From NCBI GenBank assembly GCA_005882635.1, contig VBFG01000048.1, positions 15,913-79,912 on the forward strand: a stretch of DNA of 64,000 bases, read 5' to 3'. Shown piece by piece: positions 20,981 through 52,844 of this stretch. Positions within the stretch are counted from its first letter, which is position 1; the number at the start of each line of letters is the position of its first letter. Position numbers and translations under genes: made by a program. The stretch comes from Chloroflexota bacterium. GTDB lineage: Bacteria > Chloroflexota > Limnocylindria > Limnocylindrales > CSP1-4. The notes under the pieces are model-generated. The model was given only the letters and a program-made list of their open reading frames with translations, was not told the DNA's origin and did no database searches.

Positions 20981-21056
20981 TGGTAGGGGAGCCAGGACTC
21001 GAACCTGGAACCAGCGGGATATAAGCCCGCCGCTCTGACCATTGAGCTACTCCCCC
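20981..21056 (-). tRNA. tRNA-Ile (anticodon TAT)
   Basis: 76 nt cloverleaf: GGGGGAG TA GCTC AATGGTCA GAGC G GCGGG CT-TAT-AT CCCGC TGGTT CCAGG TTCGAGT CCTGG CTCCCCT A CCA. Confidence 0.93.
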
Positions 21057-21062
21057 GGGCGG

Positions 21063-21091
21063 ATGCTACTGCCGACGCGCCGCGGCGTCAC
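21063..21091 (-). promoter_or_regulatory. sigma70-type promoter for tRNA-Ile(TAT)
   Basis: Minus strand GTGACG-N17-TAGCAT, followed by GC-rich CCGCCC and then tRNA base 1. Confidence 0.6.
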
Positions 21092-21103
21092 GGGGGGAAA
21101 AGG

Positions 21104-21412
21104 CTAGTTGTCGATCTGGCCCAGGACCCGCCCGGCGAGCGCTCGGAGGCTCAGCGGCCGGGGATTGAGCGAAAGCTCGGCGTCGTCGCTCGTGGGCAGG
21201 CGATCGCTTCGGTTGAGACTGCCGCCGGCGCGATAGTAGCGAGCCGGCAGGCTCTCGAGGAGCTCCCGCTCCTCGGCCGTCTGGATCGCCTCGATCGGCA
21301 GGTCGTCGGGGTCGAACGGGCGCGGTGACTCCATCACGATCGGAGCCGGCCGCGCGTAGGCCGGAGCCCCGTACAGCTTTGGCAGCGCGATGTGCTGTTC
21401 GTCCAACGCCAC
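21104..21412 (-). CDS. hypothetical protein
   Basis: GAGGA SD 8 nt before GTG; ALPKLYGAPAYARP..PFDPDDLPIEA with good codon bias. Confidence 0.65.
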   Translation of the reverse strand: MALDEQHIALPKLYGAPAYARPAPIVMESPRPFDPDDLPIEAIQTAEERELLESLPARYYRAGGSLNRSDRLPTSDDAELSLNPRPLSLRALAGRVLGQIDN

Positions 21413-21586
21413 CCGATGAGTCCTCGTTGCCTCCGTCGGATACCCGACGAAGCGGATGATATCCAGCCGAGAGTACCTTGGAATGGTACGGATGGGCCAT
21501 ATCAGTTGCGAGGGGTTCGAGGCGGAAGTGGTGCCGCTGTGCACAACGGGACCTTTGGCTGGCGTCCCCCGATTTCCCGCCGGATC

Positions 21587-22021
21587 TCAGCCGATCAGCG
21601 GCTCCAGGATCTGCACGACGACGACCAGCACGAGGTAGCTGATCGGGACCGCGGCGAAGAAGCCGAGCGCTGCGCTCCAGACCGACCGGGTCGTGCGGTC
21701 GCCCGATCCGCGCGGCTGGGGGACGACAACCCAGGTCACGACGCTGCCGACGATCAGGACGACGACGACGTCGGCGACGAGGTACAGGGTCCGGAGGTCG
21801 CCGCCCGGGAGTGCCATGCCACGCCGGATCGCGACGTCGTAGACGAGGTAGCCCAGGCCGAGGACGATCGCCACGACGAGGCTGGCGAGCACGGCCCGGA
21901 CGACCGGCCGCGGGGCGTTCCGGAACTGGCGCCAGCGGACCTCGAGCCACGACCGCCGGCGGACGTCAGGCCGGCGAACGTCAGGCCGGTGGACGTCGGG
22001 CAGCCGGCTTGGAGCGCTCAC
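21587..22021 (-). CDS. hypothetical membrane protein (3 TM)
   Basis: GTG overlaps the upstream stop; three hydrophobic helices. Confidence 0.7.
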   Translation of the reverse strand: MSAPSRLPDVHRPDVRRPDVRRRSWLEVRWRQFRNAPRPVVRAVLASLVVAIVLGLGYLVYDVAIRRGMALPGGDLRTLYLVADVVVVLIVGSVVTWVVVPQPRGSGDRTTRSVWSAALGFFAAVPISYLVLVVVVQILEPLIG

Positions 22022-23259
22022 GACGCCCCCTGGCCGATGATCGTCAGGCGAGGCCGCTGCGGCAGCGTCGCCGGGGTGTGCGACGCCAGGAGCTCGACGG
22101 CCGTCGCCACGCGCTCGATCTCGTCGGCCGTCGTGAAGAAGCCGACGCTCAGGCGGATGGCGTCGAGCGCCGGGATCGTCCGGGCGATCGCGAACGTCCG
22201 CCCGGCGATCTCGTCCAGTGCCGCCTCGGCGTCCCAGCCCCCGATCCGGAAGGTGACGAGCGTCGCCATGCGGTCGGGCGGCGTGAGGATGTCGACGCCG
22301 TCGATCGCCGCCAGGCGATCGACGGCGGCCCGCGCCATCGACTGGCCACGCTCGTGGATCCACGGCAATCCGACGTACATCGACAGCCAGCCGCAGCTCC
22401 GGGCGAGTCCGGTGACGGCGGGTCGGTAATGGCCGGCCTCCTCGAATCGACGAGCGTTGGGCCACGGGACGGCCGCATCGTTGTCGATCCGCTCGTACGT
22501 GAACCAGCTCGCGGTGGACACCCGCGACGAACCCGTGATCCCAGCGGCGGCCCACAGTGCGCCGGTTCCTTCCGGCCCGAGGAGCCACTTCTGGCCGGGA
22601 ATGGCGTAGAAGTCGACGCCGAGATCGGCGACGTTGACCGGGATGGCTCCGGCTGCCTGGGCGCCGTCGACCGCGATGACGGCGCCCCGATCGTGGGCCA
22701 GCGCCGCGATCCGCTCGATCGGCATCCGCGCGCCGCTCGTCCACAGGACGTGGGAGAGGGCGACCAGTCTCGTCCCGGGTCGGATCGCCGCGTCGAACGC
22801 CGCCACGATCGCGTCGTCGTCCCCGCCGAGGCCGACGTCGACGACGATCAGCTCGCAGCCGCTGCGGGCCGCAGCGGCGTGGACCGGACCGAGCCCGCCG
22901 GGATGTTCGGCCTGCGTCGTGACGATCCGATCGGTCGGCTGGACGTCGCGCGACCACACCGCCGCATTCATCCCGCCCGAGGTCGAGTGGGTGATCGCGA
23001 TCTCGTCGACCTCGGCGCCGACGACGGCGGCCACCGCTCCCCTCGCCTCGGCGAGGCGCTCCAGGAAGCCTTCCCAGTAGTCGGTCGACGAGCGGCCGAT
23101 GCGGAGCTCGTAGTCGACGATCTCGGCCATGGCCGCGGCGGTCTCGGCCGGCAGCGGACCGACCGACCCGGTGTTCAGGTAGATGCCCGCGTCGAGCGCC
23201 GGCAGGGCCACCCGGATCGCCGCCACCTTCTCGTCGTCGGGCAGGAACGGCGCGACCAC
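22018..23259 (-). CDS. class V PLP aminotransferase-fold C-S lyase (cystine lyase/EgtE/CefD-like)
   Basis: YLNTGSVGP, EH, SHV, VDGAQAAG, PGQKWLLGP (PLP Lys), IRLS; lacks the RxGxHC persulfide Cys of SufS-type desulfurases. Confidence 0.85.
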   Translation of the reverse strand: MVAPFLPDDEKVAAIRVALPALDAGIYLNTGSVGPLPAETAAAMAEIVDYELRIGRSSTDYWEGFLERLAEARGAVAAVVGAEVDEIAITHSTSGGMNAAVWSRDVQPTDRIVTTQAEHPGGLGPVHAAAARSGCELIVVDVGLGGDDDAIVAAFDAAIRPGTRLVALSHVLWTSGARMPIERIAALAHDRGAVIAVDGAQAAGAIPVNVADLGVDFYAIPGQKWLLGPEGTGALWAAAGITGSSRVSTASWFTYERIDNDAAVPWPNARRFEEAGHYRPAVTGLARSCGWLSMYVGLPWIHERGQSMARAAVDRLAAIDGVDILTPPDRMATLVTFRIGGWDAEAALDEIAGRTFAIARTIPALDAIRLSVGFFTTADEIERVATAVELLASHTPATLPQRPRLTIIGQGAS

Positions 23260-23277
23260 GCCCGTATCATATCGGCG

Positions 23278-24165
23278 ATGTCGTCGCCTCCCGCCGGTCG
23301 CAGGCTGCAGCGGACGCGCACGCCCGGCGGGCTGGCTCGGCCCGAGCTGCTCGCATCGACCGACTGGCTCGCCGACCAGCTCGGACGGCCGGAGGTCCGG
23401 ATCCTCGACGTCCGCTGGCGGCCCGACGGCTCCGGTCACCAGGTCTGGTCGACCGGACACATCCCGGGCGCGGTGTTCGTCGATTGGCGAGCCGATCTCA
23501 CCGACACGGGCGAGAGCGGCGACACGTTGCTCCTCGCCGGCCCCGAGCAGGTCGCCCGGACGCTCGCGTTGGGAGGGGTCGGCGACGGGGCCACGGTGGT
23601 GGTCTACGACGACACGGTGTCCCTGTTCGCGGCGCGCGTCTGGTGGAGCCTGCGGGTCTACGGCCTCGAGTCGGTCCGCGTCCTCGACGGCGGTTTTCCC
23701 GCGTGGCAGGAGGAGGGCCGGGCGATCTCGAACGCGGTCGCGCCGCCGCCGCCGGCGCATTTCACGCCGCGGGCGCAGCCGCGAATGCGGCTCACGACGG
23801 CCGACGTCCGCGCTCTCCTCTCCTCCCCCGACGTCATGCTGCTCGATGCGCGCGCGCCGGCCGAGTACCGGGGTCACGAGGGCACGACCAAGCGGCTCGG
23901 ACACATCCCGGGCGCGGTGAACGTGCCGGTCGGCGCGATGACGCGGCCGGGCAGCCAGCACTTCCGGGTCGGCGACGAGCTGCGGGACATCCTGTTCCGG
24001 GCGAACGTCGCCCGCGGGCGGCGGATGGTCTGTTACGACGGCTCGGGGATCGCGGCGGCGAAGCTGGCGTTCGCCCTGACGCTCCTCGGCCACGATGACG
24101 TCGCCGTGTATGACGGCGGCTGGGCCGAGTGGGGCAACCGCCTGGATCTGCCGGTCGATCGGTAG
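23278..24165 (+). CDS. tandem-domain rhodanese/sulfurtransferase (SseA-like), catalytic Cys replaced
   Basis: GHIPGA twice, VVYDD, AARVWW, LDGG, YDGGWAEW; active loop reads YDGSG rather than YCGSG. Confidence 0.85.
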   Translation: MSSPPAGRRLQRTRTPGGLARPELLASTDWLADQLGRPEVRILDVRWRPDGSGHQVWSTGHIPGAVFVDWRADLTDTGESGDTLLLAGPEQVARTLALGGVGDGATVVVYDDTVSLFAARVWWSLRVYGLESVRVLDGGFPAWQEEGRAISNAVAPPPPAHFTPRAQPRMRLTTADVRALLSSPDVMLLDARAPAEYRGHEGTTKRLGHIPGAVNVPVGAMTRPGSQHFRVGDELRDILFRANVARGRRMVCYDGSGIAAAKLAFALTLLGHDDVAVYDGGWAEWGNRLDLPVDR

Positions 24166-24437
24166 CGATCCGTCACGCCGGTCCCGCGAGGGCCTTCCGC
24201 CGGCTGATATCACCACCGTTGTTACAGCTGGGAGTGGCGGCCGGTCAAGCCGGATTCGACGGGCCCGGTCGTCGGGATTCGTGCACCGTCACGCTCGATT
24301 CCTGCGCGCGCCGCCCAGCCGACAGGGGCTTAGCGCCGTTCTTGCCCCTCCGGTATCGATGGCGCTGATATTCCCGAGAGCAAGGGGGGTGCCAGCGCTT
24401 GAGCAGCGACCGCGCGAGCCACGCGCGAGGGCGGGGA

Positions 24438-51864: not shown

Positions 51865-52049
51865 CGGCGACCTCCGGCACCTGGGCGGCAATGGTATCGC
51901 CGTCGGAGCGGCGATCACGGTTGGCGTTGGTGCCGACTCCGGGCTCCGGGCCGCGCTTGACGGACCTCCGTCCGGACGGCAGAGTCCGGCCGGTGGAACT
52001 CCGGCACGTCCCGCGGAGCCACGCCGGCGAATCCGCGCAGAACGGGGCC

Positions 52050-52844
52050 ATGATGTCGATGGAGTCTGAGCGCGCGACTGCGCGGGACCGACCACCGGAA
52101 GAAGCGTCCGAGGACACGTCGTTCGCGCGCGGCCTGCGCGTCCTGCTGACGATCGCCGACCGGGGTGAGATCCGGGCCGACGAGCTCAGCGCCCTCCTCG
52201 ACACCCCGATCTCGACGATCTACCGCTACCTGCGGACCCTGGCCGGCTTCGGCTTCGTCGACCGTCAGGGCGCCGGCTACCGCCTCGGACCGCGGCTGAT
52301 CATCGGGCGCGGCGCGAACGTCACGGCCGAGGAGCTGAGGCGCACCGCGGACCCGGTCCTTCGGCTCCTCGCCGAGGAGACCGGCGAGACCGCCGTCATC
52401 GTCCGCCGGGTCGGCCTGATGGCGGTCTGCCTCCACGAGGTTCCGTCGCGCCACCCGCTGCGGGTCGCGATCGCGCCCGACACGTCGCTCCCGCTCGACA
52501 GCGGCGCATTCGGCAAGGCCCTGCTGGCGTTCGCGCCCCCCGAGATCCTCGACGAGGTGCTCGCGGCCGACACCCGGTCTCCGGGCGCGCCGATCGAGGA
52601 TCGCCTTCGGGCGGATCTGGCCGACATCGTGACGAGCGGGGTGGCCCGCTCGGTCGGCGAGGCGATCGGTAGCTCGGTGGCCATCGCGGTTCCCATATTC
52701 CGAGAAGACGGGATCGTCGCGGCGATCGGCGTCGTCGGCCCCGAGAGCCGCTGTGGGCTCGGCTGGCGGACGCGCGTCGCGCGCCTCCTGCCGGGTGCGG
52801 CGAGCTCCGTCGTCGGGGCGCTCAGCCCGGGACTGTCGGCGTAG
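52050..52844 (+). CDS. IclR family transcriptional regulator
   Basis: RGLRVL..STIYRYLRTL HTH; ETGET, GKALLAF, AIAVPI. Confidence 0.92.
   Translation: MMSMESERATARDRPPEEASEDTSFARGLRVLLTIADRGEIRADELSALLDTPISTIYRYLRTLAGFGFVDRQGAGYRLGPRLIIGRGANVTAEELRRTADPVLRLLAEETGETAVIVRRVGLMAVCLHEVPSRHPLRVAIAPDTSLPLDSGAFGKALLAFAPPEILDEVLAADTRSPGAPIEDRLRADLADIVTSGVARSVGEAIGSSVAIAVPIFREDGIVAAIGVVGPESRCGLGWRTRVARLLPGAASSVVGALSPGLSA

What the first reader, a model, noticed from the sequence alone, without database searches (positions are those of the whole stretch)
20981..21056. Intact tRNA-Ile with a UAU anticodon: candidate TilS-independent AUA decoding
Seen: a canonical 76 nt cloverleaf with anticodon TAT, A73 discriminator, U12-A23 pair, encoded CCA and its own GTGACG-N17-TAGCAT promoter. 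It lies among ordinary chromosomal genes rather than in a tRNA array or phage. Its atypical features are G1-U72 and U38. AUA codons exist but are rare, for example ATA at 52695-52697 in the IclR gene. Established: almost all bacteria read AUA with tRNA-Ile2(CAU) modified to lysidine by TilS, and UAU tRNAs are avoided because U34 can wobble on AUG; exceptions such as Mycoplasma mobile are few. Inference: this lineage may have replaced or supplemented the TilS system, with an adapted IleRS and some means of AUA/AUG discrimination.
Basis: partly seen in the sequence, partly recalled or inferred. Interest (0 to 1): 0.78.

Follow-up and report, generated by a model that had tools for sequence, protein, structure and literature searches.

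The report
Lysidine-free AUA-reading isoleucine tRNA, order-wide
This is a real isoleucine tRNA with a UAU anticodon that reads the rare AUA codon in a whole order of soil and freshwater Chloroflexota bacteria which lack the usual lysidine enzyme TilS, a known but supposedly rare arrangement.

Summary
The tRNA is real: window 20981-21056, minus strand, anticodon TAT, Rfam tRNA 73.3 bits. It is not a local oddity.

- **TilS:** no TilS N-domain match at E<=1e-5 in 0 of 72 (family f1) and 0 of 11 (f2) genomes of its order, and none in its own genome. Sister families of the same class have one in 71 of 82, 72 of 83 and 2 of 2.
- **tRNA(UAU):** a tRNA(TAT) pattern shows the reverse, 68/72 and 10/11 against 0/167.
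- **CAU tRNAs:** the own genome has only two, an initiator and an elongator Met.
- **Codon meaning:** AUA is rare, 180 of 805,011 codons. At 17 informative aligned sites it matches Ile/Val/Leu-type residues and never Met.
- **IleRS:** it is the type 2, "eukaryote-like" form, already present in the TilS-bearing sisters.

This is a new lineage for a known solution (Mycoplasma mobile, Bifidobacterium, Neorickettsia). By relatives' record titles it is Candidatus Limnocylindrales. Charging by IleRS, the state of U34 and AUA/AUG discrimination are untested.

This scan met the same tRNA before in another Limnocylindria genome (e1-1491015, TilS untested), and many UAU cases in CPR bacteria.

The parts
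20981..21056 (-). tRNA-Ile(UAU), 76 nt, with encoded CCA
   Evidence: ARAGORN. Rfam tRNA 73.3 bits. Orthologues in 80 of 80 fetched loci of the order carry TAT. 10 of 20 stem pairs show compensatory changes among 41 distinct sequences.
21021..21023 (-). Anticodon TAT (tRNA positions 34-36)
   Evidence: Sequence. The loop CTTATA is invariant in alignments A1 and A2. DNA contigs of runs X2 and X4 list no difference here.
21063..21068 (-). -10-like hexamer TAGCAT, 6 nt upstream of the tRNA 5' end
   Evidence: Sequence. A TANNNT hexamer lies 6-9 nt upstream in 39 of 39 same-genus loci, 4 of 26 other f1 loci and 0 of 15 f2 loci. It is below the threshold of the consensus scan.
21086..21091 (-).
   Evidence: Present in the sequence but not conserved in relatives' upstream regions. 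It should be treated as doubtful.
21107..21544 (-). Conserved upstream ORF of unknown family, same strand as the tRNA
   Evidence: No Pfam or NCBIfam match. tblastn finds it beside the tRNA in 57 of 80 loci, conserved from about residue 45 on. Contigs from RNA libraries X15 and X16 cover 21103-21446, which is weak evidence.
52695..52697 (+). Example of an in-frame AUA codon (codon 269 of an IclR-family gene, 51891-52844)

Best explanation
The gene encodes the only AUA decoder of this bacterium, an isoleucine tRNA whose UAU anticodon is written in the genome.

**What is shown.** The common ancestor of two sister families lost both TilS and the CAU-anticodon tRNA-Ile2 that TilS modifies. These are f1 (about 3 Mb, 71-73% G+C) and f2 (about 1.1 Mb). 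By relatives' record titles and a 2026 paper they are the CSP1-4 and Limnocylindraceae families of Candidatus Limnocylindrales, Chloroflexota. The lineage has kept tRNA(UAU) ever since. AUA positions behave as isoleucine positions.

**What is inferred.**
- The tRNA is charged by the single type 2 (ARD3-bearing) IleRS. That type already existed before TilS was lost.
- U34 pairs with the A of AUA.
- U34 is either unmodified, as in Mycoplasma mobile and the Bacillus subtilis suppressor, or carries something other than xm5U, because MnmE and MnmG were not found.
- Reading of AUG is held down by the anticodon-loop context (C32 with U38 or C38, instead of the A38 of Ile2(CAU)) and/or by the ribosome.
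- The body of the tRNA most likely descends from tRNA-Ile2(CAU), with a remodelled acceptor stem.
For: 1. **Real tRNA under selection.**
- establish the tRNA.
- There are 41 distinct orthologues with an invariant CTTATA loop.
- 10 of 20 pairs have compensatory changes, with 1 broken cell.

2. **No TilS in the own genome (93.3% complete).**
- TIGR02432 gives 0 hits.
- PF01171 gives four weak hits, E >= 0.007. They are GuaA, LepA, NadE and MnmA.
- An HMM built from six sister-family TilS proteins hits 7 of 7 held-out TilS loci at 366-722 bits. Its best hit in the six-frame translation of the genome is E 0.26.

3. **Clade pattern.**

| Search | f1 | f2 | f3 | f4 | f5 |
|---|---|---|---|---|---|
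| TilS_N at E<=1e-5 | 0/72 | 0/11 | 71/82 | 72/83 | 2/2 |
| tRNA(TAT) pattern | 68/72 | 10/11 | 0/82 | 0/83 | 0/2 |

The reversed-pattern control gave 1 hit in 251 genomes.

4. **CAU tRNAs.**
- The own genome has two. One is an initiator with a C1-A72 mismatch.
- The other is identical to the elongator-type tRNA of a TilS-bearing genome, which in addition has a GGGCCC-acceptor CAU tRNA.
- 38 of 45 f1 genomes give exactly two CAT-pattern hits. 44 of 49 f4 genomes give three or more.

5. **AUA means Ile.** ATA occurs 180 times in 805,011 codons, in 156 of 2100 heuristic genes. There are 17 aligned sites where the partner codon is not ATA:
- Ile(ATC) 8, Leu 3, Val 2, and Thr, Tyr, Ala, Pro 1 each; Met 0.
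- Control: ATG codons align to Met at 70% of 2536 sites.
- Control: ATC codons align to Ile 62%, Val 18%, Leu 10% of 7582 sites.

6. **IleRS.** tRNA-synt_1 + Anticodon_1 + DUF5915, closest to P. megaterium IleRS2 structures. DUF5915 is found in 121 of 121 class genomes. The G34-pocket residues Q, R, K and L are conserved (PMC13752280 passages).

7. **Descent.** Positions 8-65 are 81-86% identical to four of the sister-family GGGCCC-acceptor CAU tRNAs compared (75-79% for three others). The best own tRNA reaches 80%.

8. **Chromosomal.** The flanking genes are shared across f1 genera.
Against: - No experiment shows charging, modification or decoding.
- The acceptor stem GGGGGAG/CUCCCCU lacks the C4-G69 found in the same-genus tRNA-Ile(GAU) and in the sister Ile2(CAU). 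It differs at only one pair from the elongator tRNA-Met, GGCGGAG/CUCCGCU. Identity by acceptor stem is therefore not Ile-like.
- The AUA test rests on only 17 informative sites and on heuristic gene calls.
- All genomes are metagenome-assembled. Four f1 genomes and one f2 genome lack a pattern hit.
- Naming the GGGCCC-type CAU tRNA as Ile2 is inference. It rests on which tRNA is missing in TilS-less genomes and on E. coli TilS determinants that I recall.
- No shared synteny with the sister Ile2(CAU) loci was found within 1.5 kb, so descent rests on sequence similarity alone.
Confidence: 0.82

Rival explanations
1. TilS and tRNA-Ile2(CAU) exist but were not assembled or binned. The UAU tRNA would then be a supplement.
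For: The genome has 222 contigs and is 93.3% complete. The rRNA-operon tRNAs Ile(GAU) and Ala(UGC) are missing from the assembly, so tRNA genes can be lost.
Against: No TilS hit in 0/72 f1 and 0/11 f2 genomes, including assemblies of 2-10 contigs. The same search finds TilS in 145 of 167 sister-family genomes of similar quality. No f1 or f2 genome shows the GGGCCC-type CAU tRNA among the listed CAT-pattern hits.
Confidence: 0.03
2. AUA has been reassigned, for example to Met as in many mitochondria, or the tRNA is charged with another amino acid. The Met-like acceptor stem would fit this.
For: The acceptor stem differs from the elongator tRNA-Met at one base pair only and shares its G1-U72.
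Against: 0 of 17 informative AUA sites align to Met, while ATG codons align to Met at 70% of 2536 sites. 8 of 17 align to ATC. From established knowledge, which I recall, MetRS depends strongly on C34.
Confidence: 0.04
3. The tRNA is a horizontally acquired or phage-derived accessory gene, or a decaying copy with no role.
For: tRNA(UAU) does occur in a 9-tRNA array in another Chloroflexota genome (L241). Two rather different variants, about 76% identical, occur within one genus.
Against: Both variants sit at the same locus with shared flanking genes. The gene is present in 68/72 and 10/11 genomes of the two families. The stems co-vary. The window holds no tRNA array and the genes examined around the tRNA are not phage genes.
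Confidence: 0.03
4. The lineage uses a new, dedicated device for AUA/AUG discrimination or for charging. Candidates are an unknown U34 modification, 2-thiolation by MnmA, or a retuned IleRS anticodon pocket. It would then not be the passive M. mobile-like solution.
For: - Y38 replaces A38 in all 41 distinct tRNA(UAU) sequences of the order.
- The IleRS ARD3 motif is EG-D-ARE in 22 of 23 TilS-less sequences (Glu in the other) and EG-L-ARE in 27 of 28 TilS-bearing sequences (Ala in the other).
- MnmA is present while MnmE and MnmG were not found.
- A class-V aminotransferase/cysteine-desulfurase-like gene lies two genes upstream.
Against: - f1 and f2 form one clade, so each difference is a single event.
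- Other Chloroflexota with tRNA(UAU) and no TilS hit have A38 and W or L at the IleRS position.
- Yeast IleRS, which serves a U-type Ile anticodon, has Leu there.
- The desulfurase-like gene scores far below the SufS and IscS cut-offs.
Confidence: 0.25

Closest known systems
Mycoplasma mobile tRNA-Ile2(UAU) system (Taniguchi et al. 2013, PMC3575796; abstract and passages read)
   Same: No tilS. A genome-encoded UAU anticodon in place of CAU. AUA is read as Ile.
   Different: M. mobile has a type 1 IleRS whose Zn-binding domain carries Arg865 in place of the conserved Trp. This lineage has a type 2 IleRS with no Zn-binding domain. M. mobile is a reduced AT-rich parasite, whereas this is a free-living clade with 64-73% G+C in which AUA is very rare. 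Unmodified U34 and ribosome-level discrimination are shown for M. mobile and unknown here.
Bifidobacterium and Neorickettsia, which lack tilS and have tRNA-Ile(UAU) and a 'eukaryotic-type' IleRS (discussion passages of PMC3575796; introduction of PMC3919564)
   Same: The same combination: a type 2 IleRS, no tilS and a UAU tRNA. This is the closest match in kind.
   Different: A different phylum. Here the TilS-bearing sister families with the same IleRS type are available for comparison. The supplementary table listing those species could not be seen.
Bacillus subtilis tilS-deletion suppressor, tRNA1-Ile G34U (Kohrer et al. 2014, PMC3919564; abstract read)
   Same: A U34 Ile tRNA suffices for AUA. 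In that strain U34 is unmodified and binds AUG only weakly.
   Different: That is a laboratory mutant derived from tRNA-Ile(GAU). This one is a natural, old, order-wide gene whose body resembles Ile2(CAU).
Canonical bacterial TilS / tRNA-Ile2(CAU, lysidine) system
   Same: The same job, a dedicated AUA decoder. The sister families of the same class use it.
   Different: There is no TilS and no Ile2(CAU) here. The acceptor stem has G4-C69 and G5-C68 where the sister Ile2(CAU) has C4-G69 and C5-G68. That those two pairs are TilS determinants in E. coli is recalled, not taken from a call.
Eukaryotic cytoplasmic tRNA-Ile(UAU, pseudouridine-modified) charged by IleRS2 (PMC8007984 passage)
   Same: A UAU-type Ile tRNA served by the same class of IleRS. 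The ARD3 pocket residues are conserved.
   Different: The eukaryotic tRNA is modified at positions 34 and 36. No such information exists here.

Membership tests
TilS-independent AUA decoding by tRNA-Ile(UAU) | Genome-encoded cloverleaf tRNA with anticodon UAU | tested here: met
   conserved in relatives.
TilS-independent AUA decoding by tRNA-Ile(UAU) | No tilS gene | tested here: met
   Own genome. Order: 0/72 and 0/11 at E<=1e-5, and 0 of 61 over the cut-off. This means not found in the genomes searched, all of which are metagenome-assembled.
TilS-independent AUA decoding by tRNA-Ile(UAU) | No tRNA-Ile2 with a CAU anticodon | tested here: met
   The own genome has two CAU tRNAs, an initiator and an elongator type. 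38 of 45 f1 genomes have exactly two CAT-pattern hits. Isotype assignment is by comparison, not by an isotype model.
TilS-independent AUA decoding by tRNA-Ile(UAU) | AUA codons are used and mean isoleucine | tested here: met
   180 ATA codons. At 17 informative aligned sites: Ile 8, Leu 3, Val 2, others 4, Met 0. The sample is small and the test indirect.
TilS-independent AUA decoding by tRNA-Ile(UAU) | IleRS aminoacylates the UAU tRNA | not testable with these tools
   One search gave one strong ileS hit in the own genome, the type 2 enzyme. The weaker hits were not examined. Charging needs a bench assay.
TilS-independent AUA decoding by tRNA-Ile(UAU) | U34 reads AUA without reading AUG | not testable with these tools
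   Only indirect points are available: Y38 in place of A38, and MnmE and MnmG not found.
M. mobile subtype (type 1 IleRS with a basic residue at the E. coli W905 position) | Zn-binding C-terminal domain with Arg or Lys replacing the conserved Trp | tested here: not met
   The IleRS has DUF5915/ARD3 and no Zn-binding domain. It belongs to the Bifidobacterium/Neorickettsia subtype.
Canonical lysidine system | TilS together with a CAU tRNA carrying the Ile2-type acceptor stem | tested here: not met
Phage or mobile-element tRNA | Lies in a tRNA array or between mobile or phage genes, with patchy distribution | tested here: not met

The most novel reading that the evidence does not exclude
The loss of TilS in the ancestor of the CSP1-4 and Limnocylindraceae families came with a coordinated rebuild of the AUA decoder. 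The changes would be A38 to U/C38, a new acceptor stem with G1-U72, and a Leu-to-Asp change beside the wobble-base pocket of IleRS2. Together they would give a way of charging and AUG-avoidance not yet described, possibly with an unknown U34 modification. TilS-bearing sisters with the same IleRS type exist, so each step could be tested by swapping parts.
Probability: 0.25. Interest if true: 0.72.

Novelty: new member of a known kind. Interest (0 to 1): 0.5.

Why it matters
Papers up to October 2026 still call bacterial tRNA-Ile(UAU) 'rare cases' (PMC13752280, passage) and treat TilS as conserved across bacteria (PMC12514573). Here a whole order lacks it. According to PMC13212565 (passages), the families named in that paper reach up to 18% of soil and sediment communities and have colonised fresh water.

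The boundary is clean. The TilS-bearing sister families have the same IleRS type and similar G+C, so this is a natural before-and-after pair. It can be used to ask three things:
- what must change in the tRNA when lysidine is given up
- what must change in the synthetase
- whether the ribosome has to change as well

It also has practical consequences. TilS is unsafe as a universal marker or essential-gene assumption for this group. Annotation pipelines should expect two, not three, CAU tRNAs here.

Tried and rejected
- **Deletion scar.** In f3 and f5, tilS lies next to tRNA-fMet and an elongator-type tRNA-Met. The ORFs of five such loci found nothing but the tRNA itself beside the f1 initiator tRNA. 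No scar was seen.
- **Synteny with Ile2(CAU).** No flanking gene is shared within 1.5 kb between the UAU locus and the sister Ile2(CAU) loci.
- **IleRS Asp1045 as a general signature.** This was rejected. Other Chloroflexota with a UAU tRNA or pattern hit have W, L or R at that position, and yeast IleRS has L.
- **ATA codon at codon 15 of the upstream ORF as a regulatory device.** This was rejected. The codon is not conserved, and conservation starts near residue 45.
- **Neighbouring desulfurase-like gene as a tRNA thiolation partner.** It scores far below the SufS and IscS cut-offs, so nothing supports the idea.
- **Expression.** RNA-library contigs cover the upstream ORF. One contig holds a relative's copy of the tRNA with unlike flanks. 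Contigs cannot show transcription of the tRNA, so this is not used as evidence.
- **Phylum scan.** Most pattern hits outside the order are chance, since the reversed-pattern control gave similar numbers. Only 3 of the 12 loci checked held a UAU tRNA.
- **ARAGORN's 'tRNA-Ile(gat)' on contig C48.** It is an 81-nt call that does not look like a tRNA and was set aside.
- **Extra CAT-pattern hits.** The third hits in G017, G068 and G190 do not resemble the other CAU tRNAs and were not examined further. The third hit in G141 is a second initiator copy.
- **Literature.** Searches found no paper linking Limnocylindria or Chloroflexi with loss of TilS. PMC13212565 has 0 occurrences of 'tRNA' or 'TilS' in its main text.

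Full report
**Observation.**
ARAGORN places a 76-nt tRNA at window 20981-21056 on the minus strand, with anticodon tat. Rfam's tRNA model scores it 73.3 bits, E 6e-16, full length.

The minus-strand sequence shows the following:
- acceptor stem GGGGGAG/CTCCCCT, so G1-U72
- A73 and an encoded CCA
- U12-A23
- anticodon loop CTTATAT, so C32, U34-A35-U36, A37, U38

ATA at 52695-52697 is codon 269 of an IclR-family gene at 51891-52844.

The promoter claim is half right:
- TAGCAT lies 6 nt upstream of the tRNA 5' end. A TANNNT hexamer sits 6-9 nt upstream in 39 of 39 same-genus loci.
- GTGACG is not conserved.
- The consensus scan reports no site.

Contigs of two DNA runs from other studies cover the tRNA with no difference listed at the anticodon.

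**The genome.**
The window is part of a 3.18-Mb, 222-contig assembly with 70.8% G+C, rated 93.3% complete. The closest IleRS loci in public genomes are titled Candidatus Limnocylindrales, Limnocylindria or Chloroflexota MAGs.

The tool's anonymous families fit a 2026 paper on the class Limnocylindria (PMC13212565, passages):
- f1, about 3 Mb, fits CSP1-4
- f2, about 1.1 Mb, fits Limnocylindraceae, the sister of CSP1-4
- f3 and f4 fit the earlier-branching soil families

This mapping is my inference.

**No TilS and no Ile2(CAU).**
In the own genome the TilS N-domain model finds nothing and the C-domain model finds nothing meaningful. The four weak PP-loop matches are GuaA, LepA, NadE and MnmA.

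I built an HMM from six sister-family TilS proteins. It recovers 7 of 7 held-out TilS loci at 366-722 bits. Its best hit in the six-frame translation of the own genome is E 0.26.

ARAGORN finds 55 tRNAs with only two CAU anticodons:
- One is an initiator with the C1-A72 mismatch.
- The other is identical to a tRNA of a TilS-bearing genome (G301). That genome also has a third CAU tRNA with acceptor GGGCCC. G301 is rated 5% contaminated, which is a caveat.

**The clade pattern.**
The class was sampled at 251 genomes.

| Search | f1 | f2 | f3 | f4 | f5 |
|---|---|---|---|---|---|
| TilS_N at E<=1e-5 | 0/72 | 0/11 | 71/82 | 72/83 | 2/2 |
| Pattern for a TAT anticodon loop plus T-loop | 68/72 | 10/11 | 0/82 | 0/83 | 0/2 |

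- The reversed-pattern control for the TAT search gave 1 hit.
- A first sample of 61 genomes gave 0 TilS hits over the cut-off.
- The CAT version of the pattern gives exactly two hits in 38 of 45 f1 genomes, and three or more in 44 of 49 f4 genomes.
- All 80 fetched UAU-tRNA loci of the order carry TAT.
- Among 41 distinct sequences, 10 of 20 stem pairs show compensatory changes and one cell is broken. The CTTATA loop never varies.
- Within f1 the gene keeps its neighbours.

These tallies include a few genomes flagged as unpublished. They are G010; nine f3/f4 genomes (the same draw was searched); and G302, G176 and G142.

**What AUA means.**
A heuristic gene call gave 2100 genes and 805,011 codons. 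ATA occurs 180 times, against 36,651 ATC and 995 ATT, in 156 genes.

I aligned the own proteins with 400-kb samples of three relatives, in both directions. Pairs had to share at least 50% identity and 60% coverage.

| Codon class | Sites | Aligned residues |
|---|---|---|
| ATA, partner codon not ATA | 17 | Ile(ATC) 8, Leu 3, Val 2, Thr 1, Tyr 1, Ala 1, Pro 1, Met 0 |
| ATG control | 2536 | Met 70% |
| ATC control | 7582 | Ile 62%, Val 18%, Leu 10% |

Six further rows were ATA opposite ATA. Some of them are the same site seen from both sides. The sample is small, but it excludes Met and fits Ile.

**The synthetase.**
The ileS search gave one strong hit, on own contig C64, a protein of 1132 aa. 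It has tRNA-synt_1, Anticodon_1 and DUF5915 domains. It is closest to Priestia megaterium IleRS2 structures and resembles MupA and MupB. The weaker hits were not examined. So it is the type 2 enzyme. Taniguchi et al. noted the same type for TilS-less Bifidobacterium and Neorickettsia (PMC3575796, passages).

DUF5915 is found in 121 of 121 class genomes, TilS-bearing ones included. The enzyme type therefore predates the loss.

I mapped positions through the PDB alignments onto the pocket described for G34: Q961, R964, K965 and L969 of the P. megaterium enzyme (PMC13752280, passages). The own enzyme keeps Q1054, R1057, K1058 and L1062.

I then compared 23 TilS-less with 28 TilS-bearing C-terminal regions:
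- Five columns separate the groups.
- One of them is Asp1045, nine residues before the pocket. The TilS-less group has D in 22 and E in 1. The TilS-bearing group has L in 27 and A in 1.
- This is a single clade, so it is a single event.
- Other Chloroflexota with a UAU tRNA or pattern hit have W, L or R there, and yeast IleRS has L.

It is a lead, not a finding.

**Origin of the tRNA.**
- Positions 8-65 are 81-86% identical to four of the sister-family GGGCCC-acceptor CAU tRNAs compared, and 75-79% to three others. The best own tRNA, Thr(UGU), reaches 80% and the own elongator Met 69%.
- The acceptor stem is different. It is GGGGGAG/CUCCCCU, against GGGCCCG/CGGGCCC in the sister Ile2-type tRNA and GGGCGUU/AACGCCC in the same-genus tRNA-Ile(GAU).
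- It is one pair away from the elongator Met stem.
- Position 38 is U in 24 and C in 17 of the 41 distinct sequences. One pattern hit has G. The sister CAU tRNAs have A.

I read this as descent from Ile2(CAU) by a C34-to-U change, followed by release of the acceptor stem from TilS recognition. This is inference.

**Modification enzymes.**
MnmG was not found. MnmE matched only through GTPase domains. MnmA is present at 321 bits. An xm5U34 is therefore unlikely. Unmodified U34, as found in M. mobile (PMC3575796 abstract) and in the B. subtilis suppressor (PMC3919564 abstract), is the simplest expectation.

**Wider phylum.**
In 251 Chloroflexota genomes, most pattern hits outside the order are chance. 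ARAGORN confirmed UAU tRNAs in three loci:
- G399, which has TilS
- G484, with no TilS hit
- a 9-tRNA array in G518

G408 has a pattern hit and no TilS hit. The arrangement may therefore have arisen more than once in the phylum.

**Composition.**
G+C of the sampled DNA is 0.64 (f2), 0.69 (f3), 0.705 (f4) and 0.73 (f1). Rough ATA use per 1000 codons is as follows:

| Group | ATA per 1000 codons |
|---|---|
| f2 | 1.55 |
| f3 | 1.03 |
| f4 | 0.56 |
| f1 | 0.14-0.26 |

The f2 and f4 samples are only about 9000 codons each. AUA rarity is therefore shared with the TilS-bearing sisters and does not by itself explain the loss.

**Known or new.**
The kind is known (PMC3575796; PMC3919564). It is still described as rare (PMC13752280). 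My searches found no paper that reports it for Limnocylindria or Chloroflexota. Supplements could not be opened.

This scan had noted the same tRNA in another Limnocylindria genome without being able to test TilS (e1-1491015). It has also recorded many UAU cases in CPR bacteria, some of which partly failed later checks.

- the TilS test, which places the boundary at the order and not the class
- the assignment of the CAU tRNAs
- the AUA = Ile test
- the IleRS type and its age
- the remodelled acceptor stem and position 38

**Verdict.**
This is a new member of a known kind, of moderate interest.

Noticed in passing
L139-L145 (sister families f3, f5): In TilS-bearing relatives the order tRNA-fMet, elongator-type tRNA-Met, tilS is conserved. 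The tRNA-Met ends about 100 nt before tilS.
   Followed up: partly
window 21057-21068 and same-genus loci: The conserved -10-like hexamer ends only 6-9 nt before the mature 5' end of the tRNA. The primary transcript may therefore start at or next to position 1, leaving almost no leader for RNase P.
   Followed up: partly
L062, L063, L071, L097 versus L005-L034: Two diverged forms of the UAU tRNA, a 76-77 nt form with U38 and a 78-nt form with C38 (about 76% identical), occur within one genus at the same locus. This suggests replacement or conversion of the gene.
   Followed up: partly
G000 contig C64 (L039:871-4266, minus strand): The IleRS has a 46-residue insertion (residues 161-206) relative to P. 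megaterium IleRS2. It scores just under the ileS equivalog cut-off, 615.8 against 621.4 bits. Whether the TilS-bearing sisters share the insertion was not checked.
   Followed up: no
whole genome G000: MnmG and MnmE were not found while MnmA is present. The U34 tRNAs for Lys, Glu and Gln may therefore carry s2U without an xm5 group.
   Followed up: partly
window 21107-21544 (minus strand): A small ORF with no known family is kept directly upstream of the tRNA in 57 of 80 loci. It is conserved only from about residue 45, so the annotated start is probably too early.
   Followed up: partly
L241 (G518) and L245 (G484): One other Chloroflexota genome has a 9-tRNA array that includes tRNA-Ile(UAU) next to tRNA-Ile(GAU). 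Another genome, in family f56, has a UAU tRNA and no TilS hit.
   Followed up: partly
G000 contigs: The genome encodes a tRNA-SeC(UCA). ARAGORN also reports two odd calls with 2- and 4-base anticodons and a false-looking 81-nt 'tRNA-Ile(gat)' on C48. The rRNA-operon tRNAs Ile(GAU) and Ala(UGC) are not assembled.
   Followed up: no
window 22021-24216 (minus strand): A 732-codon open frame has a class-V aminotransferase/cysteine-desulfurase-like domain only in its second half. Strongly conserved alternative frames overlap it at 21590-22426, so the gene boundaries here are unclear.
   Followed up: partly
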